A DNA stretch of 42,515 bases from sequence record PP754824.1, one strand, 5' to 3'. The DNA is from a phage. Below are positions 12,595 to 30,676 of this stretch, one piece after another. The notes below the pieces were generated by a model. It saw only the letters and a program-made list of their open reading frames with translations, did no database searches and had not been told where the DNA came from. Numbering within the stretch: the first letter of the stretch is position 1; every line of letters begins with the position of its first letter. The position numbers and the translations under genes are program-made.

Positions 12595-12621
12595 AAATAG
12601 CCCCATTACGGGGCTTTTTTG
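12594..12621. terminator. bidirectional rho-independent terminator at a convergent junction
   Basis: AAAAAT-AGCCCCATTACGGGGCT-TTTTTGTTTTT. Confidence 0.7.
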
Positions 12622-12992
12622 TTTTTCCTGAATATTACCAAAAGCAGAATGATGATGATGCACAACATAATTCCACTTCCAACCCACGGGATTGCAGAAG
12701 AATCATTGTTTGTGATTTCAATCTTCTCAGCTGTGATTGTTGACGCTTTGATTGAGTTATCAGAAGTCTTCTTACCGCTTGAGCTATCAAGAGTGTCAAC
12801 ATTAGAGTTCTTCAACTCAGCCTTTGCATTGGAACTTGAATAAACCTTGTTTGTCAGACCTACGCCAACCTTATTGTTCTCCGCTCCAGCCTGGGCGCTA
12901 ATCTCTGGCTTACTGCCAATCAATCCGGTCAGTGCTGATGTTGCCGAACAACCAGAAAGAAGAATTGCCGCAGCAATTAATACAGTCTTCAT
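12606..12992 (-). CDS. unimolecular spanin (outer-membrane lipoprotein signal plus C-terminal transmembrane segment)
   Basis: Lipobox LLSGC near the N-terminus and hydrophobic C-terminus IMLCIIIILLLVIF followed by RKNKK; architecture of phage T1 gp11-type u-spanins. Confidence 0.65.
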   Translation of the reverse strand: MKTVLIAAAILLSGCSATSALTGLIGSKPEISAQAGAENNKVGVGLTNKVYSSSNAKAELKNSNVDTLDSSSGKKTSDNSIKASTITAEKIEITNNDSSAIPWVGSGIMLCIIIILLLVIFRKNKKAP

Positions 12993-13474
12993 TTACCAAC
13001 CCCGCTTAAGCACAATTTAATCTCCTCGTTACGCCTGTTTACGAGACCCTTGACTACCTTCAGCTTGCCATTTATTCGAGCCTTGTTCCACATCCCGAGA
13101 GCCTTGCAACCCTGCTCAACTTTACCCTGGTTAATCAGCCGTACAGCCGTTGACTTCCTCATTGCAGAACCGCCAACGTTATAACTAAAGCTGATTAACG
13201 CCGCCCTTGTTTCTGGTGAAATTGGATAGGTAACTGCATCCTGCACATACTTACCATGAATCTTAATGTGCCTCTCCAGCAAGTTACGGCACTCCCTTGC
13301 GCTGTATACTTTACCAACAATAACATCTGGGCCAGTCACACCAGAACAAACCGTAGGTATGCCAGCAATATCCATATATGGCCTGTACCCTACACCCTCA
13401 ACAAGCTCAATAACCGGCGCTGCGATGTATATTGCCGCTGCCGTCGCTGCACTAATTATCAGCCTTTGCTTCAT
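12989..13474 (-). CDS. SAR endolysin (GH24 lysozyme with N-terminal signal-anchor-release domain)
   Basis: Catalytic-triad pattern E-x8-D-x5-T (LVEGVGYRPYMDIAGIPTVCSG) after a weakly hydrophobic N-terminal segment AATAAAIYIAAPVI. Confidence 0.8.
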   Translation of the reverse strand: MKQRLIISAATAAAIYIAAPVIELVEGVGYRPYMDIAGIPTVCSGVTGPDVIVGKVYSARECRNLLERHIKIHGKYVQDAVTYPISPETRAALISFSYNVGGSAMRKSTAVRLINQGKVEQGCKALGMWNKARINGKLKVVKGLVNRRNEEIKLCLSGVGK

Positions 13475-13689
13475 TACTTACTCCTTATCTTGATTGCTGT
13501 TTTTAAGTCTCCTGATTCAAGTGCTCGTCGAATCGCCTGGCTATCCTTAAACTTCCAGTAAGACCCCCATAACCCAAAAACGATAAGAGCTACAAGGCTG
13601 ATTATTGCGACTGTGATTTGACCAGTTGCGGCGCCAGTTACAGCAGCCCCGCCAGTTGATGCCGTGGCGGCGTTAAGTACTTCCCTCAT
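13474..13689 (-). CDS. putative holin/pinholin (71 aa from the internal ATG)
   Basis: Single hydrophobic segment ITVAIISLVALIVFGLWGSYW and charged C-terminus; immediately upstream of the endolysin; the ORF-track start at 13767 would run into the upstream terminator. Confidence 0.5.
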   Translation of the reverse strand: MREVLNAATASTGGAAVTGAATGQITVAIISLVALIVFGLWGSYWKFKDSQAIRRALESGDLKTAIKIRSK

Positions 13690-13763
13690 GTGATCACCTT
13701 TAAATCCTAATTTGTCAATAGATAGTGTAAATATAATACAGTAGGCCAGTTCGGATTGTAAGC

Positions 13764-13790
13764 ACAAAAAAGGGGAGCCAAAAGGCCCCC
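13764..13790 (-). terminator. rho-independent terminator (minus strand)
   Basis: GGGGGGCCTTTTGGCTCCCC followed by TTTTTT on the minus strand. Confidence 0.6.
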
Positions 13791-16822: not shown

Positions 16823-18813
16823 AACAATTCTCCAAAATTCTTAAAAGCGATTATATCTTTACCTTTGCCGTTTTTTCTATGTGTAACCTGCACTGGTGCG
16901 CGGAACTTATCCACGTTCGCCATAATCATTCTCGCATTGCGAAGTCTGCCAATTCTTGTGGCTTCAGCGCGATTCTCTATATGAGCAAGGCAGAAGTTCT
17001 TCCATAGCACGCTGCAAACTCGATGGTCAGACTCGGGGTTGAAGAATTCCCATGCATTAAACCGATCTCCGTTATGAGCCATGATATTGTACTTAACAAC
17101 AATTCCGGTTTGATTCTTACTTAAGCCAACTTGAAAATCATAAACAAGAAGGTAATCACCACGACGATACATCTTACCTGTAAGGTTAGCATTGGGGTCT
17201 TTAAGCATCTCTCCGCACTCTCGACAGACCTTCGCTGCTATATCATTGCGAGTCCCGCACCCTTTTTTGATAATAGCCTTTGTCTGCAGGTCTGTAATAT
17301 CTTCACAAACTGTAAAAGTAAAGAAGTGCTCACATCTCTTTCCGTCAATCTTATTTCCGCATCTACGAGCAAAAGGCGAATTCTCGTATGAGCAAATTGG
17401 GCACACTCGAACCTCTGAATCACCATTGCGTGATGACTTAAACTTCTCGGCCTGAATCTCTTCAATTATTGGATCAAAGTAAAGTTCAGCCATATCATCA
17501 AGTGCGCCAGCAAAGTCCAGGACTAAGTGGTCATCCTTTTTCATACCAATTTCAATATGTTTCTTCTTGAGAATTCGCATTCCACGACCAAGAAGCTGAA
17601 TCATTAATGTCAGGCTTCCAATCCTGCGGAGTATGACACTTGTGTCCCACGGAGGCACCGAAACGCCTGTGGTTAAGCATCCAATCTGAAAAATAATCTT
17701 GTACTTTCCGGTCTGGCATTCATCTAGAATTTCCCTTCTCTTCTTCTCACCAGTGGAATCAGTGATTATCGCGTAAGGATAACCATCGGGTAGAGCAGCA
17801 GCCGCTTCATCGCAGTGCATTTTACCAGCGCAAGTTACCAGTGCGGCGTTACGTGTTTCAAGTATTTTGATAACGAACCCCATTATCTTTTGTGTCATCG
17901 TCTGGTTTTCGTGAATCTTTGCAGCCATTGCATCCATTTCTTTTTTGCTGAAATCCTTAACGCCATCACTTCCATCAGGTGCAAACTCGCTAAGGTCATA
18001 ACCCAAATCACCAACCTCACCGTAAACAGTTGGAACAACGAATCCCAAATCAACCAGGTAACTGGTCGGAACTTGCATTACCGTCTTGCGCCAGAAGCCA
18101 CGAATATTTGGGTTACTAACTACAATGTGGTCGTTGTTACGATACGGGCTACCAGTCAAGCCGAATATACGGAGCTCGCGACCATACTTCTCTTTGCAGC
18201 GGCGCTTCATTTCAGTGATGATTAGTGTGTACTGCGCACGACCAGTTCCAAGAAATCCGGTATTCACTCCATCCTTGAAAACCATTTCGCCTTTCTTGGT
18301 GCTCATTTGCTCAAATGTCTCTTCGTTCTCTTCAGCTTCTACGATATCCATGTGGTCCACCATGTGTGCCTCATCTATTGCGATAACCGCAGGAACATAG
18401 TCACCAAGACCCTTAAACAATCCATTGGCAGCCGTTCCTTCACTAGCCACTATGGTTGGGTAATAAACTGATTTAACGTTAAGGCCAGCGCAATATACGC
18501 TATTACGAATGCCAAAGCTGCGAAGTTCTTCAGCGTTCTGACTGATAATTTCAGACTGGCGAGAAAGTACCATATAAGGAAGGCCAAGTTGCTCCATGCG
18601 TTTACCAATCATGGCAATAATGATTGTCTTGCCAGCCGATACAGACAGGTCTGCGATGAACGGAGCTTCGTACTTAGCAATATTCTTGCCGATTTGGTCG
18701 AATGTCACGCACTGGAATGGATACGGCGTAATATCTCCAAACTGATAGTCTCTCTGAATCTGCTTAATCTTTTCTTGGTCAAAGTTTGCCACTAAGCGTT
18801 CTACTGGAAGCAT
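16819..18813 (-). CDS. SF2 DEAD/DEAH-box helicase with C-terminal zinc-ribbon region (664 aa)
   Basis: Motif I SVSAGKT, motif II IDEAH, helicase C-terminal region, then Cys clusters CPICS...RRCGN and CRECG. Confidence 0.85.
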   Translation of the reverse strand: MLPVERLVANFDQEKIKQIQRDYQFGDITPYPFQCVTFDQIGKNIAKYEAPFIADLSVSAGKTIIIAMIGKRMEQLGLPYMVLSRQSEIISQNAEELRSFGIRNSVYCAGLNVKSVYYPTIVASEGTAANGLFKGLGDYVPAVIAIDEAHMVDHMDIVEAEENEETFEQMSTKKGEMVFKDGVNTGFLGTGRAQYTLIITEMKRRCKEKYGRELRIFGLTGSPYRNNDHIVVSNPNIRGFWRKTVMQVPTSYLVDLGFVVPTVYGEVGDLGYDLSEFAPDGSDGVKDFSKKEMDAMAAKIHENQTMTQKIMGFVIKILETRNAALVTCAGKMHCDEAAAALPDGYPYAIITDSTGEKKRREILDECQTGKYKIIFQIGCLTTGVSVPPWDTSVILRRIGSLTLMIQLLGRGMRILKKKHIEIGMKKDDHLVLDFAGALDDMAELYFDPIIEEIQAEKFKSSRNGDSEVRVCPICSYENSPFARRCGNKIDGKRCEHFFTFTVCEDITDLQTKAIIKKGCGTRNDIAAKVCRECGEMLKDPNANLTGKMYRRGDYLLVYDFQVGLSKNQTGIVVKYNIMAHNGDRFNAWEFFNPESDHRVCSVLWKNFCLAHIENRAEATRIGRLRNARMIMANVDKFRAPVQVTHRKNGKGKDIIAFKNFGELL

Positions 18814-18853
18814 TTTAAATATCCTGATAGTTCTTTAGTTCGTTGCATTGATG

Positions 18854-18897
18854 TATAATAACAGCCATCGAACCCATTGTTTAACAAAAAGTGCTAT
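18854..18897 (-). promoter_or_regulatory. conserved promoter box, variant AATAGCACTTTTTGTTAA, about 22-nt spacer, -10 TATTAT
   Basis: Upstream of the helicase start at 18813; sits in the divergent region before the plus-strand gene at 18910. Confidence 0.5.
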
Positions 18898-18909
18898 TGA
18901 GGTAATGAG

Positions 18910-19392
18910 ATGTGTGAAATCGACAAGCGAACTATTAACGGCAATAACGGAACCGTGCGCACAAAAGACAAAAAGCAACGCAAACGACCATCAGGCTACT
19001 ACGTATTGAAAGATGAGGTAAAGGCTGGGCTACGTGCTCGCCTGGAGATGGTTCTTGATTTCTACGGTACAAAGGCGAACATCGCAAAGCAGTTAAATGT
19101 GTCCAACCAAGCTGTATCGGAATGGTTTAACCGCGGTATGATTTCGGCTCGAGGGGCTCAGCGAGCACATAATGCGTACAAGCGAAATAAGGAGGGATTT
19201 CGAGCTACATTCTGCCGACCAGACCTGCAATTCGACGGAAACGGAAAACCGCTAACACTTCGATGCAAGAAGCGCCATATGCTTCGCGTAGTTACCGATG
19301 CAGAACTAGCAACAAAGCCACCCTGTCGACCATGGCGAAAGAATAAGATTGCCAACGAAGCCGCACGAAAAGCTAAAGAAAGATCTGAATGA
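18910..19392 (+). CDS. HTH DNA-binding protein (YdaS/Cro-like), putative transcriptional regulator (160 aa)
   Basis: GTKANIAKQLNVSNQAVSEWFNRGMIS resembles Cro/YdaS-type helix-turn-helix; basic flanks. Confidence 0.55.
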   Translation: MCEIDKRTINGNNGTVRTKDKKQRKRPSGYYVLKDEVKAGLRARLEMVLDFYGTKANIAKQLNVSNQAVSEWFNRGMISARGAQRAHNAYKRNKEGFRATFCRPDLQFDGNGKPLTLRCKKRHMLRVVTDAELATKPPCRPWRKNKIANEAARKAKERSE

Positions 19393-19403
19393 GTATGTAT
19401 AAT

Positions 19404-19432
19404 GCCCTCAAGTTAAATGCGAGGGCTTTTTT
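19404..19432 (+). terminator. rho-independent terminator
   Basis: GCCCTCAAGTTAAATGCGAGGGC followed by TTTTTT; abuts the ATG at 19433. Confidence 0.6.
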
Positions 19433-20356
19433 ATGCATCACGATAAGAATGAAGTTTTGTCAAAAATGAAGGGCATGTGGTCAAAGTTTTACGAATCTCA
19501 CATGGGCTGGACAAAAGAAAACCTTAGCAAGAAACACGGGCCATGCCCTTACTGCTTTGGTAAGGATAGGTTTCGTTTTACTGATGAATTAAATAACGAG
19601 AAAGGTAATGGCGCTGCAATTTGCAGTCAGTGCGGTAATGATACAGGTATAGGATGGGTCATGAAGTGCACTGGATTGTCCTTCACCGATTCAGTAAATT
19701 TGCTTGGTGACTGGCTGAACTTAACACCAATTGAGGTTATAGTTAAAGCAAACAAGCAAGCGTCGAGAACTCAGCGATACAAAATGGGTGCCCATGTCGA
19801 CCACGAGAAAGTTCTGGAGGTAATGGAGAGAACCATGAGAGTCGAATCAAGTCCACTCACGACATACGAGGGTATTTACCTTAGTGATGGTTTTGATGTT
19901 GGTATCGCTAAGGATGGTTCAATGATTCACGCAACCCCATGCTCTATGGTTTATGAGGATGGGCTTGGTGATGAGTTTTGTAACGTAATGTTTATTGATG
20001 AGGATTCAAATGTTAAGTTCCTTGCTGGTGATTACACTCGTGATTCTGTTTCCGTTATTGGTTCTAGGCAGGATAATAGTTACACTTATGTTGTCGACAA
20101 TTACATTGATGGCGTACATGTTCACCTTGCTACTGGGGGTCGCGAGGTGTTTGTTGCTTTCTCCTGTTACAATATGGAGATGGTTATCCACCGCGACAGG
20201 TCAAGAAGGTTCAGGATTGCTTGCCGCGATTGTGATACTGATATACTCGCTGTCGCTGACGATCGTAATGTTGATGTGGTGATTCCTAACGACGGGAGGT
20301 CATTTAAAACAGGAATACGCAAGAAAATATACAAAGCCAACGACTTACTAAACTAA
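19433..20356 (+). CDS. putative DNA primase with N-terminal zinc ribbon (307 aa)
   Basis: CPYC-x21-CSQC zinc-ribbon as in phage primases; catalytic-domain assignment is tentative. Confidence 0.5.
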   Translation: MHHDKNEVLSKMKGMWSKFYESHMGWTKENLSKKHGPCPYCFGKDRFRFTDELNNEKGNGAAICSQCGNDTGIGWVMKCTGLSFTDSVNLLGDWLNLTPIEVIVKANKQASRTQRYKMGAHVDHEKVLEVMERTMRVESSPLTTYEGIYLSDGFDVGIAKDGSMIHATPCSMVYEDGLGDEFCNVMFIDEDSNVKFLAGDYTRDSVSVIGSRQDNSYTYVVDNYIDGVHVHLATGGREVFVAFSCYNMEMVIHRDRSRRFRIACRDCDTDILAVADDRNVDVVIPNDGRSFKTGIRKKIYKANDLLN

Positions 20357-20376
20357 CCTCCTTCGGGAGGTTTTTT
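20357..20376 (+). terminator. rho-independent terminator
   Basis: CCTCCTTCGGGAGG followed by TTTTTT. Confidence 0.7.
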
Positions 20377-20407
20377 ATTGCCTGAAAGATGGTAGAATGA
20401 ATTTTAT

Positions 20408-20423
20408 CAATTAGTGCTATTTT
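20408..20423 (-). promoter_or_regulatory. box-family copy in anomalous orientation upstream of the plus-strand tail fibre gene
   Basis: Plus strand reads CAATTAGTGCTATTTT, i.e. the box on the minus strand; no good -10 at the 22-nt spacing. Confidence 0.3.
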
Positions 20424-20441
20424 ACAAACGGAGACTTTACA

Positions 20442-21620
20442 ATGGCAATTTATGATTCTGGCACAGCAAGCCTGGCAGCCAACGGTACCGTAACTGGTAC
20501 TGGAACCAACTGGATGGCTCCGCTTACTCTCATTCGTGTAGGCGCCACTATTGTGTTCAAAACTGAACCAGTGAAGATTTACACTATCTCTGAAATTATC
20601 AGCGATACGCAGATTAATGTATACAACCCAAATTCTGAAACCGTTGCTGCTGGAACTGGTTACGCCATTCTTCTTCATGATGGTATTACAGTTCAGGGTT
20701 TGGCACAGGACGTAGCCGAGACGCTTAGATTTTATCAGTCAAATAATTATGTGAGCGGTGGTGATGATGGGAATGTAAAATTAGAGAACGGAGGAACAGG
20801 AGCTAGTACAGCACCTGAAGCGCGTAACAACCTCGGGCTTGGTCCATTGTCCACAGTTAATGTGGCTCCAATAGAGAACGGAGGAACAGGAGCTAGTACA
20901 GCACCTGAAGCGCGTAACAACCTCGGGCTTGGAACTTCTGCTGTCATTGATCATGGCTATGATCCTGGGCAGGTTCAACTAGTTTTTGGATCAAGGATAA
21001 TGCGAACCGACAAGCCCAAAACAACCTGGACGTATGGATATGAACCTATTAGTCCAACCAACTTATACTACCTAGATTATGTTGTATTTATGGATATGCC
21101 TGGACCAACTGCTAGAGAGTGGGCTCAGCTTGCCGTTTCTTATGCGGAAAGGAGATGCTATATAGCTAACTCAACTTATAATAACGGCCTTGGGTTCATG
21201 GAACTTTACCACTCACAAAACGTAACCGTAGACTCTAACGGTTTCCTTAAAAAGGCTTCTCCTATAATTAAAGTCTTCAGTGATGGTGGTTTTGAAACAA
21301 ACGAGCAATCAAAGGGAGCTACAGTGGAGAGAGTTTCCACTGGTGTTTATAGGGTATCAGGTGTGCTTGGTCTAAATTCGGATGCCTCCTGGGGTGGTGT
21401 TAATGGTGGCTTTGAGATACCTTTAGATGCAAACAAGCAGCCAAGAATATGGCTAGATTATGAGGTTGAGTCTAATGGCTCAATAGTAGTAAAAACTTAC
21501 CATCGAACTCACGATTCATCCCCGTCCTTTGCAAGAAATAAAGTTGAAGGTTTTAGTAACGGCGATCCTATAGATATTCCTTCTGACTCTTTCGTTTCAA
21601 TTCGAGTAAATATGCCATAA
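20442..21620 (+). CDS. tail fibre protein with tandem fibre-repeat motifs (392 aa)
   Basis: Two copies of ENGGTGASTAPEARNNLGLG (phage tail-fibre repeat type); separate plus-strand transcription unit with own RBS and terminator. Confidence 0.7.
   Translation: MAIYDSGTASLAANGTVTGTGTNWMAPLTLIRVGATIVFKTEPVKIYTISEIISDTQINVYNPNSETVAAGTGYAILLHDGITVQGLAQDVAETLRFYQSNNYVSGGDDGNVKLENGGTGASTAPEARNNLGLGPLSTVNVAPIENGGTGASTAPEARNNLGLGTSAVIDHGYDPGQVQLVFGSRIMRTDKPKTTWTYGYEPISPTNLYYLDYVVFMDMPGPTAREWAQLAVSYAERRCYIANSTYNNGLGFMELYHSQNVTVDSNGFLKKASPIIKVFSDGGFETNEQSKGATVERVSTGVYRVSGVLGLNSDASWGGVNGGFEIPLDANKQPRIWLDYEVESNGSIVVKTYHRTHDSSPSFARNKVEGFSNGDPIDIPSDSFVSIRVNMP
20784..20932 (+). repeat. two perfect 59-bp direct repeats (20784..20842 and 20874..20932) inside the tail fibre gene
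   Basis: Identical nucleotide strings GAGAACGGAGGAACAGGAGCTAGTACAGCACCTGAAGCGCGTAACAACCTCGGGCTTGG. Confidence 0.9.
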
Positions 21621-21623
21621 AAA

Positions 21624-21640
21624 AGCCCCCGAAAGGGGCT
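21624..21640. terminator. bidirectional rho-independent terminator
   Basis: AAAAA-AGCCCCCGAAAGGGGCT-TTGTCTTTT between convergent tail fibre and SSB genes. Confidence 0.7.
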
Positions 21641-21650
21641 TTGTCTTTTA

Positions 21651-22082
21651 TCAGAAGGGGATATCATCCTCGAAGTTCTTCTGCTGTTGAGGTTGACGCT
21701 GCTGCTGTTGTTGCTGTTGCTGCTGCTGTTGTTGCTGCTGCTGTTGTTGCTGAGGTTGTGAATCACCACGCTGACTAAACTCAAGTCGAGGGTTGTTCAT
21801 ATTGATCGTTACGTAGGTCTTACCATCTTTATCACGAACATCAACAGCCAGGCTTTCAGCGCTCACGCTAACAACTTTACCCTCCTGGAACGCCTCGTTG
21901 TACCAATCTAACATTGACTCTTTAGCGAAGAAGACGGCGCGATAGTTACTATACTGTGCATTCCCATCTTTATCCTTGTATCTCTCACTCAAGTCAACCG
22001 CAAACATTTTCCAGTTACCATTTGCGTTTTGACCTTCTTTGGTGAATGGGGCGCGGCGAATCTGACCAGTAATTACGTGCAT
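21651..22082 (-). CDS. ssb: single-stranded DNA-binding protein with poly-Gln linker and acidic DDIPF tail
   Basis: OB-fold-like N-terminal region, run of about 20 Gln, C-terminal FEDDIPF as in bacterial and phage SSBs. Confidence 0.85.
   Translation of the reverse strand: MHVITGQIRRAPFTKEGQNANGNWKMFAVDLSERYKDKDGNAQYSNYRAVFFAKESMLDWYNEAFQEGKVVSVSAESLAVDVRDKDGKTYVTINMNNPRLEFSQRGDSQPQQQQQQQQQQQQQQQQQQRQPQQQKNFEDDIPF
21680..21758 (-). repeat. CAG/CAA trinucleotide tract encoding the SSB poly-Q linker
   Basis: Plus strand shows (CTG/TTG)n over about 75 nt. Confidence 0.9.
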
Positions 22083-22125
22083 GCTTTATCTCTCTATGTT
22101 TGTTGGGGCCGCAGCCCCGTTAAAT

Positions 22126-22776
22126 TTAGAATGTGTCGATTTGTTGTGATTCTACTTTAATCTTTTCTTCAGGACTACTTTTTTCTGTAACTTTCTTTGG
22201 TGTTGCTGGGTTGAAGCCAGTCATCGCATTTGCCTCAATCTCTGCCTTGCGCTCGATAATGTGAGGTTCAAAAACCTTCCATCCAGCCGCATCAAGTGAC
22301 TGCTTAGCCTCTTTCCAGACGTTACGAAGTTCATCAAGAGTATTGCATTTCTCTAGCTCTCGCTTGAAATCCTTAACGCCTTTGGCTGCAAGATTTCCGT
22401 CATCATCAGCCTGGCTAAGACCCAAGGCAGCTGTGATACCGTAGCGACGAGCGTATGTTAAAGCTGATCCGTAACCTTGTGCATCATTCTTGCTGATTGG
22501 GACTATCATTAAGAAGCTTACCCACTCTCCAGATTCAACATGAAACAGCTTTGTCTCGACCTTCATGCGATTTGTTTGTTCGTCATCAATCACACTCTGG
22601 AACATCACCAAACCACACTCATATAAACCAGGCTCAACAGCCGCCAAAACGTCTTCTAAGGTAGCGTATTTATTCTTTAAGTGAGAGTTCTGCTTAGACT
22701 TTTCAGCCTTCGCAAATAGCGATTTAGCAGTGTGAAGCGCTTTTAAAATTGATTTGCATAATTCTGAAATTTGCAT
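22126..22776 (-). CDS. Erf-like single-strand annealing protein (216 aa)
   Basis: GYGSALTYARRYGITAALGL resembles the ERF-family core; sits between SSB and exonuclease. Confidence 0.6.
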   Translation of the reverse strand: MQISELCKSILKALHTAKSLFAKAEKSKQNSHLKNKYATLEDVLAAVEPGLYECGLVMFQSVIDDEQTNRMKVETKLFHVESGEWVSFLMIVPISKNDAQGYGSALTYARRYGITAALGLSQADDDGNLAAKGVKDFKRELEKCNTLDELRNVWKEAKQSLDAAGWKVFEPHIIERKAEIEANAMTGFNPATPKKVTEKSSPEEKIKVESQQIDTF

Positions 22777-24420: not shown

Positions 24421-24499
24421 TCATTTCCCGCGGATGAGATTGTATACATCGAGTTACATCGGTTACGTGTAACTGTGATTTATGGTGAAATTGTCGATA

Positions 24500-24544
24500 A
24501 ATAGCACGATTTGCTAAAGACAACTGGCTATCTTTAGGTATATT
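24500..24544 (+). promoter_or_regulatory. conserved promoter box (AATAGCACGATTTGCTAA), 22-nt spacer, -10 TATATT
   Basis: Plus-strand copy ahead of the 24625..26101 gene set. Confidence 0.55.
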
Positions 24545-24624
24545 TAGGCGCGTGGCGGCAATGGTGCTGTCAACTCCTCCTCAAATTGAGGAAAAGAACT
24601 TAGTTAACTCCTCAAATCTTAGGA

Positions 24625-25314
24625 ATGAAAAACAAAAGAGAGACGAAAATGAACTTAGCATTACTTAATGAAGACGTAAAAATGAATAGTTATCAGTTTT
24701 TAAATGAAGTTATCAACCCAGCGAGGTTGATCGCTGGGGAGTCCAATGTTCGACACAATGACTTTGTTGAGAGAATAGAGGATGAGCTTGAAGGGTTTGA
24801 GTTTGACTACGAAAGTTTCGTAATCAAGAGTGAGGGTAGAGGAGGTTATAGAAAGTCAATCAACTCACCAGTGCTCAATATGGAACAGATGCTTTTGATT
24901 GGGATGAGAGAATCAAAGTTCGTTCGTCGCGCAGTGCTTGCTAAGCTTAAAGAAATGCAAAGCACCATCAACAAGCAAGCGGAAGTAATCAGTCAGATGG
25001 TAAGCATTGATGAACTTAAAGAGGAAAGAATGAAGAATGGATACCTGCAAGCGCAGAATGCTCACTTGATCCAGAGAATCGTAGCTGAGCAGCGAATTAC
25101 TGAAATCACCCTGTCAGATAAGGAACTTGACAAGAAGATTGATGAGCTAGCGTGCGAGGCTCGGCAGTGCTGGTCAAGTCGCTCTGATGAGATGGAGTTG
25201 AGATTCAAGTATGAAACACAGTGCTTCGCACTTAAGGAAAAGGTAGGTGCACTGACTGGATTGATTGAGAATAATCTAGGAATTGATATCAAGTTGCTAC
25301 TTAAAGATAAGTAG
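24625..25314 (+). CDS. hypothetical protein with coiled-coil C-terminal half (229 aa)
   Basis: ORF track; alternative ATG at 24649; TAG stop is followed by a degenerate box TAGCACTAATGACC. Confidence 0.5.
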   Translation: MKNKRETKMNLALLNEDVKMNSYQFLNEVINPARLIAGESNVRHNDFVERIEDELEGFEFDYESFVIKSEGRGGYRKSINSPVLNMEQMLLIGMRESKFVRRAVLAKLKEMQSTINKQAEVISQMVSIDELKEERMKNGYLQAQNAHLIQRIVAEQRITEITLSDKELDKKIDELACEARQCWSSRSDEMELRFKYETQCFALKEKVGALTGLIENNLGIDIKLLLKDK

Positions 25315-25456
25315 CACTAATGACCACAATAAGATGTGGTCATTTAAAGTGACTGCAATAAAATGCAGCATGTAGTAACCACTACTCAGCAGCAGAATCG
25401 GAATGTTATGATGTCAGTTAATAGCGTAATGCAAATCGAAAACAAGGCGGTATAAG

Positions 25457-25726
25457 ATGAACTACGAGAAAGAGATTGCAAAAGCGAAGAAAGAGCTCAA
25501 TGAAAAGGTTGTGACAATCCTGGTAAACAACGCTCTTTTTGTTAAGCGCGCAGAGTTACTAGCAGATGACGACCCTGTCAGAAATGAGTTAATAAATCAC
25601 ATCACTGAGTCTTCATTTATTATCTCTGGCGCCCTTAAATGCACGGTCGAGCAGGCTCTTAACTTGATATTCGCTTATCGGCATTACAATGTTAAGTCCA
25701 TTCCTGGCTGTGAGGATATTCACTAA
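25457..25726 (+). CDS. hypothetical protein (89 aa)
   Basis: ORF track. Confidence 0.45.
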   Translation: MNYEKEIAKAKKELNEKVVTILVNNALFVKRAELLADDDPVRNELINHITESSFIISGALKCTVEQALNLIFAYRHYNVKSIPGCEDIH

Positions 25727-25769
25727 TAGCACTAATTGCTAAACACTTATCGCAAGGATGCGGTATTAT
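25725..25769 (+). promoter_or_regulatory. conserved promoter box (AATAGCACTAATTGCTAA), 22-nt spacer, -10 TATTAT
   Basis: Leader CATCGAAACGAAACACAC then RBS AAGGAA and ATG at 25810. Confidence 0.6.
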
Positions 25770-25809
25770 CTTTCCATCGAAACGAAACACACTTACTAAG
25801 GAATACAAA

Positions 25810-25914
25810 ATGACTAACTTAACTACTAACGTAATCTCTGCAATCTTCGGTGTAGCAGCTACTGGTTTCTTCGTATGGCTTCTGATGCTGGCTAGCAACT
25901 TTAAAGGGTTCTAA
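25810..25914 (+). CDS. small membrane protein (34 aa)
   Basis: Hand-translated MTNLTTNVISAIFGVAATGFFVWLLMLASNFKGF; single hydrophobic helix. Confidence 0.35.
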   Translation: MTNLTTNVISAIFGVAATGFFVWLLMLASNFKGF

Positions 25915-25915
25915 G

Positions 25916-26101
25916 ATGAAAAAATTAATCGTTATCACTGCAATGATTTTAGCTGGTTGTTCAGGCGGTGAAAGAACTATAGTTCTTATCAGTGACTACT
26001 CAGTTACAATTAGAGGTTGTGAATACAGCAATGGAGAGGTAAATCAAAATCTTTATTCGGTTTTACCAGCTGGATATTGTTTTAACAAGAAGGCCCATTA
26101 A
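25916..26101 (+). CDS. small lipoprotein (61 aa), candidate Llp/Cor-like superinfection-exclusion factor
   Basis: Signal peptide with lipobox ILAGC; convergent with and adjacent to the putative receptor-binding gene. Confidence 0.5.
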   Translation: MKKLIVITAMILAGCSGGERTIVLISDYSVTIRGCEYSNGEVNQNLYSVLPAGYCFNKKAH

Positions 26102-26112
26102 GGGCCTTATTT
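26091..26112. terminator. bidirectional terminator-like hairpin
   Basis: AGGCCCATTAAGGGCCT followed by TATTTTTATTT between convergent genes. Confidence 0.55.
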
Positions 26113-26910
26113 TTATTTGTTTTCCTTTCTTATCTCAACTGGATTGTAATTAAGAGGCAGCCTCGAGGTGTCGCAAACCATAACTTGCGTCCTCATATTG
26201 CCAACCCAGCCGCCAGTTGGTGAAACATCAAGGTATACACCTGTAGGTATTATGGATATAAATAGATTACCGGATGAGTCAAGGTGACAGCATTCATTAT
26301 AGTAGTACCCACCCTGCAATGATGTTTCAACCCACCCCCTACCAACAGGCATTGATAATGCTGAGTTTGATACGTTCGCGGAGTTGACAATATTCCCGAC
26401 GTTAGTCCAGTTACTACCACCTTCCTGATCTGAATGGTTTGGATAACTTGGATCAAGCCATAGCACATCCCTAAGTTTGAGGAAGTACCAGCCAGAATCA
26501 AAGATTATAGAACCAGATTCATTAAATATCTGCATTCCATAATCACTTCTTTCTGGCGGGATCCACTTGTCAAATATGTAATACTCTACAGTTCCTAGCG
26601 GTATGTTCCACCACTTGAATAGGTCTATGCTTGTCTTTGTTATTGTGGTATTTGGGTTAACAAAATCAGGTGATATTTTGTTAACTCCAGGCTTCTGGCT
26701 TATCCTTGACCTACTTTCGTTCATCTTTAGAAATAGAAGAGGCGAATTCATTCCTGTGGTCATGAGGCTAATTGCAGATGTGGAGTTTGCATATGAGTAG
26801 AAATTTGAATCATTAAATGTACCAGAACTTCTTAGTACGTAATTTACATCCTCTGCGTCAGCAACCTTTAAACCATAGTCATTTATTAGTTCAACACCAT
26901 AATCACTCAT
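26113..26910 (-). CDS. tail-associated protein, candidate receptor-binding / distal fibre protein (265 aa)
   Basis: Last gene of the tail operon downstream of J; Asn/Ser/Gly/Tyr/Trp-rich like beta-structured fibre tips. Confidence 0.4.
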   Translation of the reverse strand: MSDYGVELINDYGLKVADAEDVNYVLRSSGTFNDSNFYSYANSTSAISLMTTGMNSPLLFLKMNESRSRISQKPGVNKISPDFVNPNTTITKTSIDLFKWWNIPLGTVEYYIFDKWIPPERSDYGMQIFNESGSIIFDSGWYFLKLRDVLWLDPSYPNHSDQEGGSNWTNVGNIVNSANVSNSALSMPVGRGWVETSLQGGYYYNECCHLDSSGNLFISIIPTGVYLDVSPTGGWVGNMRTQVMVCDTSRLPLNYNPVEIRKENK

Positions 26911-27278
26911 TTATTATAAACTCCTAAGTGAACATCAACACCACCAACTGCAAGTATGTACCCAAGATCGTCCGGATAGGAAACATGCCTGTTTGTATAC
27001 CTGAGTGTAACTGCATTTCCAGATATTATTATATCAGGTGATACTGGATACCAGTTAGTAGATGCAGGGACCACCACCCCTGTTCTGGTATTGCAATGCG
27101 CATAAGGCGTTCCATTTGAGAAGTTAACATTAAATGAGACTTCCCATGGTATGTTTGCAGATAAAGCCCTTATCAGTGGCACGCTATAAGTGAATAGCCT
27201 CCTGCTCATTATGCTGCTATTGTCAGCTACAAGCCGCCCCGCAGAATCGTACATCTCCCAACCATACAAACCAGCCAT
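26907..27278 (-). CDS. tail-associated hypothetical protein (123 aa)
   Basis: ORF track; immediately downstream of J. Confidence 0.4.
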   Translation of the reverse strand: MAGLYGWEMYDSAGRLVADNSSIMSRRLFTYSVPLIRALSANIPWEVSFNVNFSNGTPYAHCNTRTGVVVPASTNWYPVSPDIIISGNAVTLRYTNRHVSYPDDLGYILAVGGVDVHLGVYNK

Positions 27279-27319
27279 ACAAATAAAACCTTAGGCGGGA
27301 TTTACCCGCCAATAATTTA

Positions 27320-30300
27320 TTAACCCAAGTATCCTAATTTTACCCTAACCACTCCATTCCGGTCCAGGACTCTCATCTTGCCACGATCGGAACCCCTAAG
27401 CGTCAATCCATCATCCTTATCTAGCCTCCAGCCTGAATTTGTACCCCAGTCATTAGACTGAATAAAGTTACCAATCTTCGCGTTACTGATTGAGCCATCG
27501 CCGATAACTGCACTCTTGATGATTACGTTTCCATTCTCGACAACGAAGGGGAGTTGCCACTGACCGGAGCCGGAACCAATGCCGTTACTGATAGCGAATC
27601 TGTTTGCGTCAAAAATGAATTGACTACGAACATTGTCACCAGTGCCGACAAGCTCCATGCTCATACCGGATGAATAAGTCTGTCCATTGTATTTCAGGCC
27701 AAGACTAATTCCGTACTGCACACCAGTCGATGTGGCATTAGAGAATGCGTCCAGCTTCTGGTTTAAAGCCGCCTCATTTTCACCAAGTCTTGCTGATAGA
27801 GTCGTGTCTGCAGTAGTCCTTGCTTCTGTCTCTGTGGCTAATGCAGTCTGAACTTCTGTAATCGATGCTACAACTTCATCATCTATCTGCGCCTTAAGGG
27901 CCGTTAGAGCCTCTACGCGCGCCTGAGTTTCATCGGCTATGAGATTCACAGCCTGAACATATTCAGCCTTACGCTTGCCGTTCTCCTTTGTCATTCTGCG
28001 AACATCGCCATCATTAGCCAGTGCGTTCTCGATAATTGCCTCAGCTTGATTCTGAATGTCCTGATTCTTTTGAATCGCATTCTGCTCGAGGTATTTGAAT
28101 CCTTCTGAACCTTCAATATCAACCTTGATGAAATCATTGATAATGTTTGCGTCGTCAGTACTCATGCCTCTTGCGAAATTAGACCAATCAGAGGTATTTC
28201 CGATTCTGTCAATCAATCTTGCGCGATACCAAATCACCTTACCTGGCTGAATTGGCGTATGCCAGTATTCGTAGGCAGGATAAGGAAGTAACGTAAGCAA
28301 ACTTGCATTATCAGGATTGTAAGTACCATCACCATTATCTGGAACCTGCTGAAGCTCAGTGTAAGCAGTATCGCCAGAGCCTTCAGGGAATCCCCATTTA
28401 ACACGGATACCAAATACTTCATCAGTTGACGCCGTGATAACCGTAGGTGCCGATGGGCGACCAATCTTGCCAGTTAGCGATACCGTTACAATACCAGACC
28501 AGGCAGACACGTTTTCAGTATCTGATACGCTGCGAACCCTAACGTCATAAATTCCTGCGTAAATACCTTCGATATCAACCTCTGTGCTAGCTGTTCTTGG
28601 TACGTTAATCCAGTTGCCATTCTCTTTTCTCCACTGAACATTGTAGGTTTTAGCGTATGGCGCTTTATCCCACCCGATAACCATCGTCTCAACTGATAAT
28701 CCTTGAACAACCTTGCTGTAGCTTGACACTGTTAAATTCTCAGGTGGCGACAATCTATCAGGCTCTACGACTGAAGTTGGACGGTCAACAATATTAACGC
28801 CGTAGTCAATCTCGTCATACTTGTTAGGGTCATACTCCACCGCAGTAATCGTGTACTGAAATGAATCAGAGCCGTCAGTATCTGCCTTTTGAATCCCGGT
28901 CACAACATACTGCTGAAGCGCAAGGTTATCCTTATCAATTGCGAACACAGTGTCTGGCTGAGCTACAAAACTGAAAGCAGTGTTAAGGTTGATTGTTCTG
29001 CCGTCTTCCGAAACACTGGCAATAGTTCTTGCCTCCGGGCTTCCGTCTGGCTTGTTAAGAATAATTCTGTCACCCGGCGCTGCGTCAACTTTAAACGGTG
29101 TAAAAACCTGTAGCCCCTGCACTGATTCAATGCGGCCGGAAAGGTTCAACTGATAGTTGCTCGACCATGCCGCATCATTAACTGCAATAACCTCGCCAAT
29201 CATCGGAATCATGCCTTCCAACCCGGTAGTGAAGCTGATAGTTTCGCTTCTCAGGTTGGTTTTTAGGAGCCATCTGCCGCGTCTGTTTGCTTCACTTCTG
29301 CGAGTGCAGCCAATTGCCGTAAGGTCGACTGGATTAAACCCGAACCTGCGAGTAGCCTCAAGCTCAAATACTGGCTCAACATCCTGCTGATAGTTGTTCT
29401 CTACATCATCAAACTGAACGTTTGCCGTGGTGTAAAGACTTTTATCGCTGGCAAATGTGCGACTGAACAATCCGTTTACAACGTTATCATTGGTGAAGAT
29501 GTAAGATGGGTTGCGAGGCTTATCAACCACGATGCCAATCTTTTCGCCGTCATAGAAAGTCAGGCCGCGAAAGATTGAACAGATATCACGAATTAGCGTG
29601 TAAGCCTCAACCTTGTTCTGTACAACCATATCGCAAAGGTAACGCGGCTCTAAGCCACCCTTGCCATCTGGAACCATCTGGTCACAGAATTGTGCAGCTT
29701 CGTACAGGCCCCACTTATCAATCTCTACACCCAGCTCTCGCTGGTCAAGTCCGTAACGGCGGTTTGTTACTAGGTCATAAAGAACCCATGCTGGGTTGTT
29801 TGACCATGCCATCTTGAATAGACCATTCCATGTGCCGCTATAAGTTCTGGTTTCAGGGTTATAGTTTGTAGGAACCTGAATCAACTTCCATCTCTTCTTG
29901 ATTGAGATTGTTGGGATGCCGTTAGGGAACAAGTCAGAACCAAACTCAACGTAAACCAGAGCCGTAAGCGGATAGCGGAATTTAGCGTCAATTACTTCCT
30001 GATAGGTTGTAATCTGCATACCGTTAACCAGGGTGCTACTTGTTGAATCCGGCGTAATCTTACGGATGCGAACAAGCGCGCTATCAAATTCTGCCGGAAG
30101 GTTTACGCGAATGCTTCGGTCGTAACCTGTAGTGGTCTTTCCGTTAGCAACTCCGCGAGTGTATTCCTGGTAAGCGCCACCATTAACAGAAAGGTCAATT
30201 GCATACTCGCAGGTTGTTCCGTTCAGGTCTCCATTGCTTTCTTGCTTAACCAGTCGAGGCCAGAATAGCTTAACTCGAATTGCCGAAAGCTGGCTGTTAT

Positions 30301-30676
30301 TAACCGCAATGATGTACGGGGTATCGTTCGTAATTTCCCTGGAAGCCTGAATCTCTGAGTTCGCACCGTCAAGCCCAGCGATATAGTCCTGATATTGCGT
30401 ACCAGCGCGAAACTCGGCGCGAACACCTTCATAGTTGTAGGTGCCATTCTGATTTTGCACTGGAACATCAGCAAGGTATAAATCCTTCAATGAGAAGTTA
30501 GGGTCCACCTCTCCGTCAGCAACCGCAAGTAATACCTTAACCTTGTTAAGTGAAATTAGGTTATCTTCCTGCTCCACTGGTTGATGCTGCTTCTGGTTAC
30601 CGCCTTTGGCACCATAAATCTTAATTTCTTCAGCCATATCACAAAGCCTCATGTTTGTTTTGATCATTTGTGCCAT
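27320..30676 (-). CDS. tail tip central fibre / host specificity protein J (1118 aa)
   Basis: Colinear similarity to lambda gpJ, e.g. QVPTNYNPETRTYSGTWNGLFK and RRGRWLLKTNL versus lambda LQVPSNYNPQTRQYSGIWDGTFK and HRAGLWLIKTEL. Confidence 0.85.
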   Translation of the reverse strand: MAQMIKTNMRLCDMAEEIKIYGAKGGNQKQHQPVEQEDNLISLNKVKVLLAVADGEVDPNFSLKDLYLADVPVQNQNGTYNYEGVRAEFRAGTQYQDYIAGLDGANSEIQASREITNDTPYIIAVNNSQLSAIRVKLFWPRLVKQESNGDLNGTTCEYAIDLSVNGGAYQEYTRGVANGKTTTGYDRSIRVNLPAEFDSALVRIRKITPDSTSSTLVNGMQITTYQEVIDAKFRYPLTALVYVEFGSDLFPNGIPTISIKKRWKLIQVPTNYNPETRTYSGTWNGLFKMAWSNNPAWVLYDLVTNRRYGLDQRELGVEIDKWGLYEAAQFCDQMVPDGKGGLEPRYLCDMVVQNKVEAYTLIRDICSIFRGLTFYDGEKIGIVVDKPRNPSYIFTNDNVVNGLFSRTFASDKSLYTTANVQFDDVENNYQQDVEPVFELEATRRFGFNPVDLTAIGCTRRSEANRRGRWLLKTNLRSETISFTTGLEGMIPMIGEVIAVNDAAWSSNYQLNLSGRIESVQGLQVFTPFKVDAAPGDRIILNKPDGSPEARTIASVSEDGRTINLNTAFSFVAQPDTVFAIDKDNLALQQYVVTGIQKADTDGSDSFQYTITAVEYDPNKYDEIDYGVNIVDRPTSVVEPDRLSPPENLTVSSYSKVVQGLSVETMVIGWDKAPYAKTYNVQWRKENGNWINVPRTASTEVDIEGIYAGIYDVRVRSVSDTENVSAWSGIVTVSLTGKIGRPSAPTVITASTDEVFGIRVKWGFPEGSGDTAYTELQQVPDNGDGTYNPDNASLLTLLPYPAYEYWHTPIQPGKVIWYRARLIDRIGNTSDWSNFARGMSTDDANIINDFIKVDIEGSEGFKYLEQNAIQKNQDIQNQAEAIIENALANDGDVRRMTKENGKRKAEYVQAVNLIADETQARVEALTALKAQIDDEVVASITEVQTALATETEARTTADTTLSARLGENEAALNQKLDAFSNATSTGVQYGISLGLKYNGQTYSSGMSMELVGTGDNVRSQFIFDANRFAISNGIGSGSGQWQLPFVVENGNVIIKSAVIGDGSISNAKIGNFIQSNDWGTNSGWRLDKDDGLTLRGSDRGKMRVLDRNGVVRVKLGYLG

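What the first reader, a model, noticed from the sequence alone, without database searches (positions are those of the whole stretch)
25916..26910. Small lipoprotein convergent with the distal tail gene: candidate receptor-blocking superinfection exclusion pair
The 61-aa ORF has a signal peptide and lipobox (ILAGC). It is transcribed from the plus strand with early-type genes and ends at a shared hairpin with the last gene of the tail operon (26113..26910, a candidate receptor-binding protein). The same arrangement is known for T5 llp next to the pb5 receptor-binding gene and for cor in T1/phi80-type phages, where the lipoprotein inactivates the receptor.
Basis: inference. Interest (0 to 1): 0.55.

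Follow-up and report, generated by a model that had tools for sequence, protein, structure and literature searches.

The report
FepA-type receptor cassette with exclusion lipoprotein
A T1/Rtp-like coliphage carries, just after its tail-tip gene, a swappable cassette that encodes its receptor-binding protein and a small lipoprotein that probably blocks the same receptor (FepA); this layout is already known, and the only new point is that this lipoprotein belongs to no known sequence family.

Summary
ORF 25916..26101 (+) encodes a 61-aa protein with a textbook lipoprotein signal (MKKLIVITAMILAG|C, Ser at +2). It converges on the 265-aa gene 26113..26910 (-) across hairpin 26090-26108.

The region 24500-28000 is 100% identical to phage vB_EcoS-IME253 (Drexlerviridae, Rtpvirus), whose published receptor is FepA and whose infection needs TonB.

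Homology to Rtp and JulesPiccard breaks exactly at the lipoprotein start and inside the C-terminal tip of J, so lipoprotein, 265-aa, 123-aa and J tip form one exchangeable cassette.

The lipoprotein is real. Two metagenomic contigs carry a diverged cassette with a 43%-identical homologue that keeps the lipobox and both extra cysteines (dN/dS about 0.19).

It is not a detectable member of the Cor, Llp or Rtp45 families, but it matches them in size, cysteine pattern, sorting residue and position.

The architecture and the IME253-FepA link are already published (BASEL; the Rtp45-LptDE and Llp-FhuA structures). Receptor blocking remains untested.

Verdict: a new member of a known kind, of modest interest.

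The parts
25727..25741 (.). Inverted repeat TAGCACTAATTGCTA, an operator-like site about 70 nt upstream of the small + strand operon
   Evidence: TAGCA-N5-TGCTA occurs 15 times (up to 1 mismatch) in the window against 2.0 expected, and 0 of 100 shuffles reached 15. The same site is conserved upstream of cor in JulesPiccard, of rtp45 in Rtp and of the homologue in L015. Assigning it to an Rtp52-type regulator rests on my memory of Wietzorrek et al. 2006; that paper is not held.
25740..25769 (+). Sigma-70-like promoter candidate (TAAACA-18-TATTAT) for the micro-ORF/lipoprotein operon
   Evidence: This is a consensus match only, 9 of 12 positions. It lies in the leader that is 78% conserved with Rtp and JulesPiccard.
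25810..25914 (+). 34-aa hydrophobic micro-ORF (MTNLTTNVISAIFGVAATGFFVWLLMLASNFKGF). It has the Shine-Dalgarno sequence TAAGGA, and its stop lies 1 nt before the lipoprotein ATG. It belongs to the conserved backbone rather than to the cassette.
   Evidence: Homologues occur in 153 phage records, in JulesPiccard and in L015 (65% aa identity, dN/dS 0.26). In Klebsiella phage Sushi it precedes a DNA methyltransferase instead.
25916..26101 (+). 61-aa prolipoprotein; the mature form is 47 aa and 5.2 kDa, with Cys15 as the lipidated residue and Cys35 and Cys55 available for one disulfide. It is the candidate FepA-directed superinfection-exclusion lipoprotein.
   Evidence: It is 100% identical in five Rtp-like coliphages. 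A 43%-identical homologue keeps the lipobox and both cysteines in L015 and L016. It has no other relatives.
26090..26108 (.). GC-rich hairpin between the convergent genes; it is an intrinsic terminator for the + strand, with a T-run extending to 26118
   Evidence: The diverged cassette in L015 has a different hairpin at the same place, flanked by an A-run and a T-run.
26113..26910 (-). 265-aa all-beta protein (phrog_4062), the candidate FepA-binding receptor-binding protein
26907..27278 (-). 123-aa accessory protein, translationally coupled to the 265-aa gene; a probable adaptor or assembly partner between the J tip and the RBP
   Evidence: It overlaps the 265-aa gene by 4 nt. A 119-139-aa gene precedes every 265-aa homologue examined. 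It is 71.5% identical in L015 with dN/dS 0.13. It matches no family. Its role is inferred.
27320..27447 (-). Cassette-specific C-terminal tip (about 30-42 aa) of the J-like tail-tip protein; the whole gene is 27320..30676
   Evidence: Homology to Rtp resumes at 27412 and to JulesPiccard at 27448. Divergence from ZL19 starts at 27464. The J domains were identified.

Best explanation
The stretch 25924-27447 is the FepA allele of the exchangeable receptor-specificity cassette that T1/Rtp-like phages carry downstream of the tail-tip gene J. The 265-aa protein, probably helped by the co-translated 123-aa protein, docks on the cassette-specific C-terminal tip of J. It is the receptor-binding protein that recognises the enterobactin transporter FepA from outside the cell.

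The convergent 61-aa gene is expressed from its own operator-controlled promoter. Its product is exported, lipidated on Cys15 and sent to the inner leaflet of the outer membrane (Ser at +2). There the 5-kDa, probably disulfide-bonded, domain binds the periplasmic side of FepA and makes it unusable for this phage. It would do so either by changing the extracellular loops, as Llp does to FhuA and Rtp45 does to LptD, or by blocking the TonB-dependent step. The result would be exclusion of superinfecting FepA-dependent phages and protection of progeny from being lost on debris.

Shown here: the gene structure, the lipoprotein signal, the cassette boundaries, the RBP fold match, and conservation of the lipoprotein under selection. 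Taken from the literature: the FepA and TonB dependence of the phage with an identical cassette. Inferred: binding of either protein to FepA, and the exclusion phenotype.
For: The region 24500-28000 is 100% identical to IME253. IME253 needs FepA and TonB, shown by deletion, complementation and adsorption (PMC6499177).

The cassette boundaries against Rtp and JulesPiccard fall at 25822/25923 and 27412/27448. In ZL19 and Rao1 the block 25231-27463 is almost invariant while the flanks diverge.

JulesPiccard has the same layout: J, then a 105-aa gene, then a 222-aa gene, converging on Cor. Rtp has Rtp45 and Rtp44 at the same locus behind the same leader.

Rtp45 is a roughly 6-kDa, disulfide-bonded exclusion lipoprotein that binds periplasmic LptDE (PDB 9RPS; PMC12685063). 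Llp binds periplasmic FhuA, and its authors expect the mechanism to extend to other TonB-dependent transporters (PMC9586334).

Mature lipo61, Rtp45 and Cor are all 47-59 aa, each has exactly three Cys, and each has Ser at +2.

A diverged cassette in L015 and L016 keeps the convergent lipoprotein with its lipobox, both cysteines and the motifs DY, RGC, NG and SVLP; dN/dS is about 0.19.

An unrelated convergent lipoprotein sits next to 43%-identical RBP homologues in L034, L037 and L038.
Against: There is no functional data for the lipoprotein.

The mature lipoprotein has no detectable similarity to Cor, Rtp45, Llp or anything else. The weak Cor hit (7e-5) disappears when the signal peptide is removed.

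The structure prediction of the mature domain was useless, with pLDDT 45.

Most RBP homologues lack an adjacent lipoprotein. This holds for E. coli prophages at 73-76% identity, Klebsiella Webervirus, a Brenneria phage and several metagenomic phages, so the RBP does not need it.

No homologue of the lipoprotein gene was found in 5,426 complete E. coli genomes.

The RBP-FepA contact is inferred from genetics on the whole phage, not on this protein. The window is not IME253 outside the cassette.
Confidence: 0.6

Rival explanations
1. The lipoprotein does exclude superinfecting phage, but not by inactivating the receptor for adsorption. It would block a later step, such as TonB coupling or DNA passage through the envelope, so that phage still adsorbs but does not inject.
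For: IME253 infection is TonB-dependent, so blocking the periplasmic TonB-box interaction would be enough. A periplasm-facing outer-membrane lipoprotein is well placed for this. The sequence is unrelated to Cor, Llp and Rtp45, so the mechanism need not be the same.
Against: Both structurally characterised analogues act by changing extracellular loops and abolish RBP binding. The gene is in the receptor-specificity cassette rather than next to injection functions.
Confidence: 0.15
2. The lipoprotein is an accessory (moron-like) envelope protein with a role unrelated to the phage receptor, for example modifying the host envelope or helping lysis or release. On this view its position beside the RBP gene is a by-product of that site being a recombination hot spot.
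For: It has no homology to any exclusion protein. Most homologues of the RBP lack it. The junction is clearly a hot spot where different genes are inserted, such as the anti-repressor insert at 24472-25725.
Against: The same slot holds Cor in FhuA-type phages and Rtp45 in LptD-type phages behind a conserved leader. The gene stays with the RBP in the diverged cassette. An unrelated lipoprotein recurs next to distant RBP homologues. A full lysis cassette with its own spanin exists elsewhere at 12606-13767.
Confidence: 0.2
3. The 61-aa ORF is not a gene (a chance ORF), or it is an outer-membrane spanin subunit.
For: It is short and annotated only as 'hypothetical'. PHROG gave a weak hit to an Rz-like spanin family, phrog_6073 at 1e-4.
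Against: Only 2 of 1272 candidate ORFs carry a lipoprotein signal. The homologue in L015 and L016 shows dN/dS of about 0.19 with a conserved lipobox and cysteines. The spanin hit vanishes without the signal peptide. The phage has holin, endolysin and a spanin at 12606-13767, and there is no partner inner-membrane spanin here.
Confidence: 0.03

Closest known systems
Rtp45/Rtp44 of phage Rtp (same genus): a superinfection-exclusion lipoprotein plus an LptD-binding RBP (PDB 9RPS; related RBP 9RPT)
   Same: The locus is the same, between J and the recombination genes, behind the same conserved operator and leader. Both are small outer-membrane lipoproteins with Ser at +2 and two further cysteines. 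The RBP fold is shared, through the Oekolampad RBP.
   Different: Neither protein shows sequence similarity to its counterpart. In Rtp the lipoprotein and RBP are co-transcribed on the strand opposite J and there is no 123-aa gene. The receptor is LptD, not a TonB-dependent transporter.
The Cor cassette of T1, phi80, N15, HK022 and JulesPiccard (phrog_557 + phrog_425 + phrog_1119), which targets FhuA
   Same: The gene order and orientation are identical: J, a roughly 105-123-aa gene, a roughly 222-265-aa gene, then a convergent lipoprotein preceded by the 34-aa micro-ORF. The receptor is also a TonB-dependent transporter.
   Different: The mature lipoprotein has no match to phrog_1119. The two tail proteins share no significant similarity. 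The receptor is FepA rather than FhuA.
Llp/pb5 of phage T5 (FhuA; Llp binds the periplasmic face and changes the loops allosterically, the FhuA-Llp crystal structure being given as PDB 8A60 in a figure legend of the KanT1 paper)
   Same: A small lipoprotein gene lies next to the RBP gene. The target is a TonB-dependent transporter. It has an intramolecular disulfide. This is the most likely mechanistic model.
   Different: The phage family, RBP fold and genome position are unrelated. No sequence match to any PDB chain was found, Llp included. T5 does not need TonB, whereas IME253 does.
The RBP of phage Oekolampad (Bas18), solved bound to LptDE (9RPT)
   Different: Identity is only 10%. The receptor differs. 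Only about 56% of the model aligns.

Membership tests
Bacterial lipoprotein (signal peptidase II substrate) | A positively charged n-region, a hydrophobic core, and the lipobox [LVI][ASTVI][GAS]C within about the first 35 residues | tested here: met
   The signal is MKK-LIVITAMI-LAGC. It is one of only 2 matches among 1272 candidate ORFs, and the other is the phage spanin. The lipobox is conserved in the L015 homologue as LSGC. SignalP and LipoP were not available.
Bacterial lipoprotein (signal peptidase II substrate) | Outer-membrane sorting, meaning no Asp at +2 | tested here: met
   The +2 residue is Ser, and Ala in the homologue. Actual localisation was not tested.
Cor superinfection-exclusion lipoproteins (phrog_1119) | Sequence match of the mature domain to the family profile | tested here: not met
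   The full-length protein scores 7e-5, but the mature 47 aa gives no hit even at E<=10, while JulesPiccard Cor scores 1e-28. tblastn of the mature part against the JulesPiccard locus finds nothing.
Rtp45-type exclusion lipoproteins (phrog_4281; PDB 9RPS) | Sequence match to the family or to the solved chain | tested here: not met
   There is no phrog_4281 hit and no PDB chain matched at E<=10 other than an unrelated plant protein.
T5 Llp | Sequence match to Llp (in the PDB as part of the FhuA-Llp complex) | tested here: not met
   phmmer against all PDB chains at E<=10 found no Llp match. tblastn found no hit in any T5-like genome at E<=1.
Phage receptor-inactivating exclusion lipoproteins (a functional class) | A small (about 5-7 kDa) mature domain with one intramolecular disulfide | tested here: met
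   The mature protein is 47 aa and 5.2 kDa, with Cys35 and Cys55 conserved in the homologue. The disulfide itself is inferred.
Phage receptor-inactivating exclusion lipoproteins (a functional class) | Encoded next to, and exchanged together with, the cognate RBP gene | tested here: met
   The cassette boundaries are, the invariant block, and the diverged cassette that keeps the pair. However, many RBP homologues lack it.
Phage receptor-inactivating exclusion lipoproteins (a functional class) | Binds the receptor and abolishes infection by phages that use it | not testable with these tools
   This needs expression and plating or adsorption assays, or a complex structure or prediction with FepA. 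FepA could not be submitted to the structure tool.
Small-siphophage RBPs encoded downstream of gpJ (Oekolampad RBP fold) | Structural similarity to the solved RBP | tested here: met
Small-siphophage RBPs encoded downstream of gpJ (Oekolampad RBP fold) | Located in the variable locus directly downstream of the J homologue | tested here: met
   This holds in the window and in all homologue loci examined.
Small-siphophage RBPs encoded downstream of gpJ (Oekolampad RBP fold) | Direct binding to the terminal receptor (FepA) | not testable with these tools
   Only whole-phage genetics is available, for IME253.

The most novel reading that the evidence does not exclude
The 61-aa protein and its 56-aa metagenomic relative would found a new sequence family of exclusion lipoproteins, the first directed against FepA. 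On this reading it arose independently of Cor, Llp and Rtp45, and phages repeatedly recruit unrelated mini-lipoproteins next to RBP genes to shut down their own receptor from the periplasmic side. If so, it would be a genetically encoded 5-kDa inhibitor of the enterobactin transporter that should also block colicins B and D and other FepA-dependent phages.
Probability: 0.5. Interest if true: 0.45.

Novelty: new member of a known kind. Interest (0 to 1): 0.33.

Why it matters
If confirmed, it would extend lipoprotein-mediated receptor shutdown to a third outer-membrane protein, FepA, alongside FhuA and LptD. It would use a protein with no sequence relation to the known ones. That would support the published expectation that the mechanism is general for TonB-dependent transporters. 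It would also provide a compact tool to switch off enterobactin uptake and a marker for predicting FepA specificity and cross-exclusion in phage cocktails. The structural link between the 265-aa protein and the Oekolampad RBP adds the FepA allele to a common RBP fold family, which helps receptor prediction and cassette-swap engineering. It does not change the overall picture, which is already in the literature.

Tried and rejected
- **Pfam, NCBIfam and PADLOC.** None gave an informative hit for the 61-, 265- or 123-aa proteins.
- **Cor and spanin PHROG hits.** The weak hits for the lipoprotein come from the signal peptide and disappear for the mature part.
- **Homologue searches for the lipoprotein.** The word-indexed search of 5.8 billion proteins found only the protein itself. 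The exhaustive HMMER search of 1.84 billion representatives found itself plus two repeat proteins. One is a eukaryotic CUB-like repeat protein and the other a 612-aa repeat protein, and their scores are inflated by 6-15 repeated weak matches. I rejected both as chance.
- **IMG/VR and E. coli genomes.** The IMG/VR scan found only IME253 and Cor genes matched through the signal peptide. There was no match in 5,426 E. coli genomes.
- **Structure of the mature lipoprotein.** AlphaFold2 on the single sequence gave pLDDT 45; I did not use it.
- **Comparisons between cassettes.** Pairwise and profile comparisons between the FepA-, FhuA- and LptD-type cassette proteins found nothing significant.
- **The second lipoprotein family.** Profile comparison of the lipo61 family with the L034/L031 lipoprotein family showed no similarity.
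- **Klebsiella phage NJS1.** It is reported to use FepA but was not among the 265-aa homologues, so it gives no independent support.
- **The Rtp genome paper.** Wietzorrek et al. 2006 could not be read.

Full report
**1. What is in the sequence**

The ORF at 25916..26101 (+) is present as described. It encodes MKKLIVITAMILAGCSGGERTIVLISDYSVTIRGCEYSNGEVNQNLYSVLPAGYCFNKKAH.

- The N-terminus is a textbook lipoprotein signal: two lysines, a hydrophobic core, and the lipobox L-A-G-C. Ser at +2 indicates outer-membrane sorting.
- A lipoprotein-signal pattern run over all 1272 start-stop combinations of at least 30 aa in six frames matched only this ORF and the 128-aa ORF at 12606..12992. The latter is the phage spanin (phrog_1804) and sits next to the endolysin and holin. 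The signal is therefore not a chance feature, and the spanin role is already filled.
- The mature protein is 47 aa (5.2 kDa) and has two further cysteines.

The ORF converges on 26113..26910 (-; 265 aa), the last gene of the operon that contains the J-like tail-tip gene (27320..30676) and a 123-aa gene (26907..27278). The 123-aa gene overlaps the 265-aa gene by ATGA.

Between the convergent genes lies the hairpin AAGGCCC-ATTAA-GGGCCTT (26090-26108). It overlaps the lipoprotein stop codon. It folds better than shuffles on both strands (z -2.3 and -3.7). It has a canonical T-run only on the + strand.

**2. Where the window comes from**

Positions 24500-28000 are 100% identical to Escherichia phage vB_EcoS-IME253 (Drexlerviridae, Braunvirinae, Rtpvirus). 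They are 99.9% identical to phiA2-1 and TR3; Rao1 (99.9%) and ZL19 (98.3%) match over part of the region. All four genes are annotated 'hypothetical'.

Elsewhere the window is not IME253. Positions 17500-22500 match phiA2-1, CY1 and Rao1 best, at 88.7-96.4%. The window is therefore a mosaic relative that shares the identical cassette.

Li et al. 2019 showed by deletion, complementation and adsorption assays that IME253 needs FepA, and by a tonB deletion that it needs TonB (PMC6499177).

**3. The cassette**

blastn against Rtp and JulesPiccard shows flanking homology of 86-94% that stops at 25822 (Rtp) or 25923 (JulesPiccard) on the left. It resumes at 27412 or 27448 on the right, inside the last 30-42 codons of J. 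The exchanged unit is therefore the lipoprotein, the 265-aa gene, the 123-aa gene and the J tip.

In ZL19 and Rao1 the block 25231-27463 differs from the window at only 1-2 positions. The flanks carry 14 and 32 differences. This is what a recently transferred unit would look like.

The left junction is a conserved leader with three elements:
- an inverted repeat, TAGCACTAATTGCTA, at 25727-25741;
- a promoter-like site;
- a Shine-Dalgarno sequence followed by ATG-ACT-AAC.

In JulesPiccard (the FhuA type) the layout is the same as here. J is followed by a 105-aa gene (phrog_557) and a 222-aa gene (phrog_425), which converge on Cor (phrog_1119). Cor is preceded by the same 34-aa micro-ORF. In Rtp the conserved start codon begins rtp45 itself, followed by rtp44, both opposite to J.

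**4. The 265-aa protein**

Sequence searches gave only phrog_4062 ('unknown function'), plus homologues of 41-88% identity. The homologues occur in:
- E. coli lambdoid prophages;
- Phytobacter, Mixta, Serratia and Pantoea genomes;
- Klebsiella Webervirus phages;
- a Brenneria phage;
- metagenomic phages.

In every locus examined the order is J, a 119-139-aa gene, then the roughly 260-aa gene.

An AlphaFold2 model built from 22 sequences is all-beta, with pLDDT 74 and pTM 0.78. Residues 1-21 are of low confidence. Foldseek against the PDB gave nothing significant, but the second-ranked chain was 9rpt_C.

BFVD gave 18 significant matches to uncharacterised phage proteins of about 200-360 aa. The 265-aa protein is therefore a diverged member of the RBP fold used by small siphophages. 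With the FepA genetics, the best reading is that it is the FepA-binding RBP. The 123-aa partner and the cassette-specific J tip probably form its docking site; this is an inference.

**5. The lipoprotein**

It has no detectable relatives in any protein database searched or in E. coli genomes. The two other hits are repeat artefacts.

The weak matches to Cor (7e-5 in PHROGs; about 42% identity at E 0.07-0.3 in tblastn) are carried by the signal peptide. The mature 47 aa hit no PHROG, and nothing in the JulesPiccard locus. No PDB chain matched, including Llp and Rtp45. It is therefore not a demonstrable member of the Cor, Llp or Rtp45 families.

It is nevertheless a real gene. I inspected contigs that carry the closest diverged RBP (P0002, 88% identity). 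Two Logan metagenome contigs, L015 and L016, hold the whole cassette at 71.8% DNA identity. On them an uncalled convergent ORF encodes MKKIFAIAALLLSGCADRIEVMVNDYENSSRGCIIKNGVKEVDLSSVLPPPVCLKK.

- It is 43% identical to the window protein overall, and 17 of 42 aligned positions match in the mature part.
- It keeps the lipobox, both extra cysteines and the motifs DY, RGC, NG and SVLP.
- dN is 0.49 and dS is 2.6, giving dN/dS of about 0.19. dS is saturated, so the ratio is approximate.
- It is preceded by the micro-ORF and the operator, and followed by its own hairpin flanked by an A-run and a T-run.

The lipoprotein has diverged much faster than the RBP (88% identity) or the 123-aa protein (72%).

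**6. Co-occurrence**

Most of the more distant RBP homologues have no adjacent lipoprotein. In E. coli prophages the RBP gene is followed by lom or by stf-like tail-fibre genes; Webervirus, Brenneria and several metagenomic phages also lack one. The RBP therefore does not depend on it.

However, L034, L037 and L038 (RBP 43% identical) carry an unrelated convergent 76-aa lipoprotein immediately after the RBP gene. L031 carries a homologue of that protein. RBP genes of this fold thus sit beside small convergent lipoprotein genes of at least two unrelated families. Together with Cor and Rtp45 at the same slot, this argues that the adjacency is functional rather than accidental.

**7. Mechanism and comparison with what is known**

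Rtp45 is a roughly 6-kDa lipoprotein with a Cys30-Cys38 disulfide. It binds the periplasmic side of LptDE and distorts the extracellular loops that the RBP needs. Llp does the equivalent to FhuA, and its authors expect the mechanism to apply to other TonB-dependent transporters. They also note that RBPs and cognate exclusion proteins can be found downstream of gpJ.

Maffei et al. 2021 matched allelic variants of these loci to receptors and list IME253 (FepA) among the phages with a known receptor. A 2026 preprint confirms the locus-receptor correlation for FhuA, BtuB, LptD and YncD.

lipo61, Rtp45 and JulesPiccard Cor share four features: a mature size of 47-59 aa, exactly three cysteines, Ser at +2, and their position. 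The most likely function of lipo61 is therefore periplasmic inactivation of FepA.

Because this phage needs TonB, blocking the TonB-dependent step instead of the loops is a live alternative. Nothing here tests binding or phenotype.

**8. Verdict**

It was, however, already anticipated in the literature for this phage family and this receptor allele.

What this analysis adds:
- the structural link between the FepA-allele protein and a solved RBP;
- precise cassette boundaries;
- evidence that the lipoprotein is a selected gene forming a new two-member sequence family outside Cor, Llp and Rtp45.

I rate it a new member of a known kind, with interest about 0.33.

Noticed in passing
window 25810-25914 (+): A 34-aa hydrophobic micro-ORF lies 1 nt upstream of the lipoprotein ATG and is not annotated in IME253. 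Homologues occur in 153 phage records, mostly Klebsiella Webervirus, where it precedes a DNA methyltransferase instead. In Rtp its start codon and first four codons begin rtp45 itself. It looks like a conserved leader gene at a recombination junction.
   Followed up: partly
window, 15 sites, e.g. 7529, 9196, 10006, 16391, 24502, 25727: The inverted repeat TAGCA-N5-TGCTA occurs 15 times (up to 1 mismatch) against 2 expected. The sites I checked (24502, 25727) lie just upstream of gene starts. It is probably the operator of the phage regulator at 18910..19392 (phrog_2856) and resembles the Rtp52 repeats that I recall from Wietzorrek et al. 2006.
   Followed up: partly
window 17500-22500: The window is not IME253 throughout. 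This stretch matches phiA2-1, CY1 and Rao1 best, at 88.7-96.4%. The lateral tail-fibre ORF at 20442..21620 is only 392 aa, whereas the IME253 record annotates a fibre gene of about 2.9 kb there. The genome is a mosaic.
   Followed up: partly
window 24472-25725: Relative to Rtp and JulesPiccard there is a 1.25-kb insertion. It carries an anti-repressor/KilA-like gene (24625..25314, phrog_8235) and an 89-aa ORF (25457..25726), with its own operator-like repeat at 24502.
   Followed up: no
window 26116-26910 and 26910-27278 (-); L002 3744-4735: The N-termini of the 123-aa and 265-aa proteins share a motif of the form M-x-x-Y-G-x-x-x-x-[DN]-x-x-G. It recurs internally in the 265-aa protein at residues 124-140 and at the N-termini of the two FhuA-type cassette proteins. 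Residues 1-21 of the model have low confidence. It may be a docking strand. I read this by eye and did not test it statistically.
   Followed up: no
L034 3348-3578 (-), L037 1415-1645 (-), L038 3348-3578 (-), L031 3325-3552 (-): Environmental phages with 43%-identical RBP homologues carry an unrelated convergent 76-aa lipoprotein (MKIIVAIAAACVLVVSGCASHKTKYFTVNC...) right after the RBP gene. The L031 version has Arg (CGC) where the lipidated Cys (TGC) should be.
   Followed up: partly
L005, L010, L023-L026: E. coli lambdoid prophages carry the 123-aa and 263-aa pair (73-76% identical RBP) between J and lom or stf-like tail-fibre genes, with no adjacent lipoprotein. This suggests that FepA-type RBP modules move between temperate and virulent phages.
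   Followed up: partly
window 12606-13767 (-): The lysis cassette comprises a holin (phrog_2877), an endolysin (phrog_7) and a 128-aa lipoprotein spanin (phrog_1804). The spanin is the only other ORF in the window with a lipoprotein signal.
   Followed up: yes
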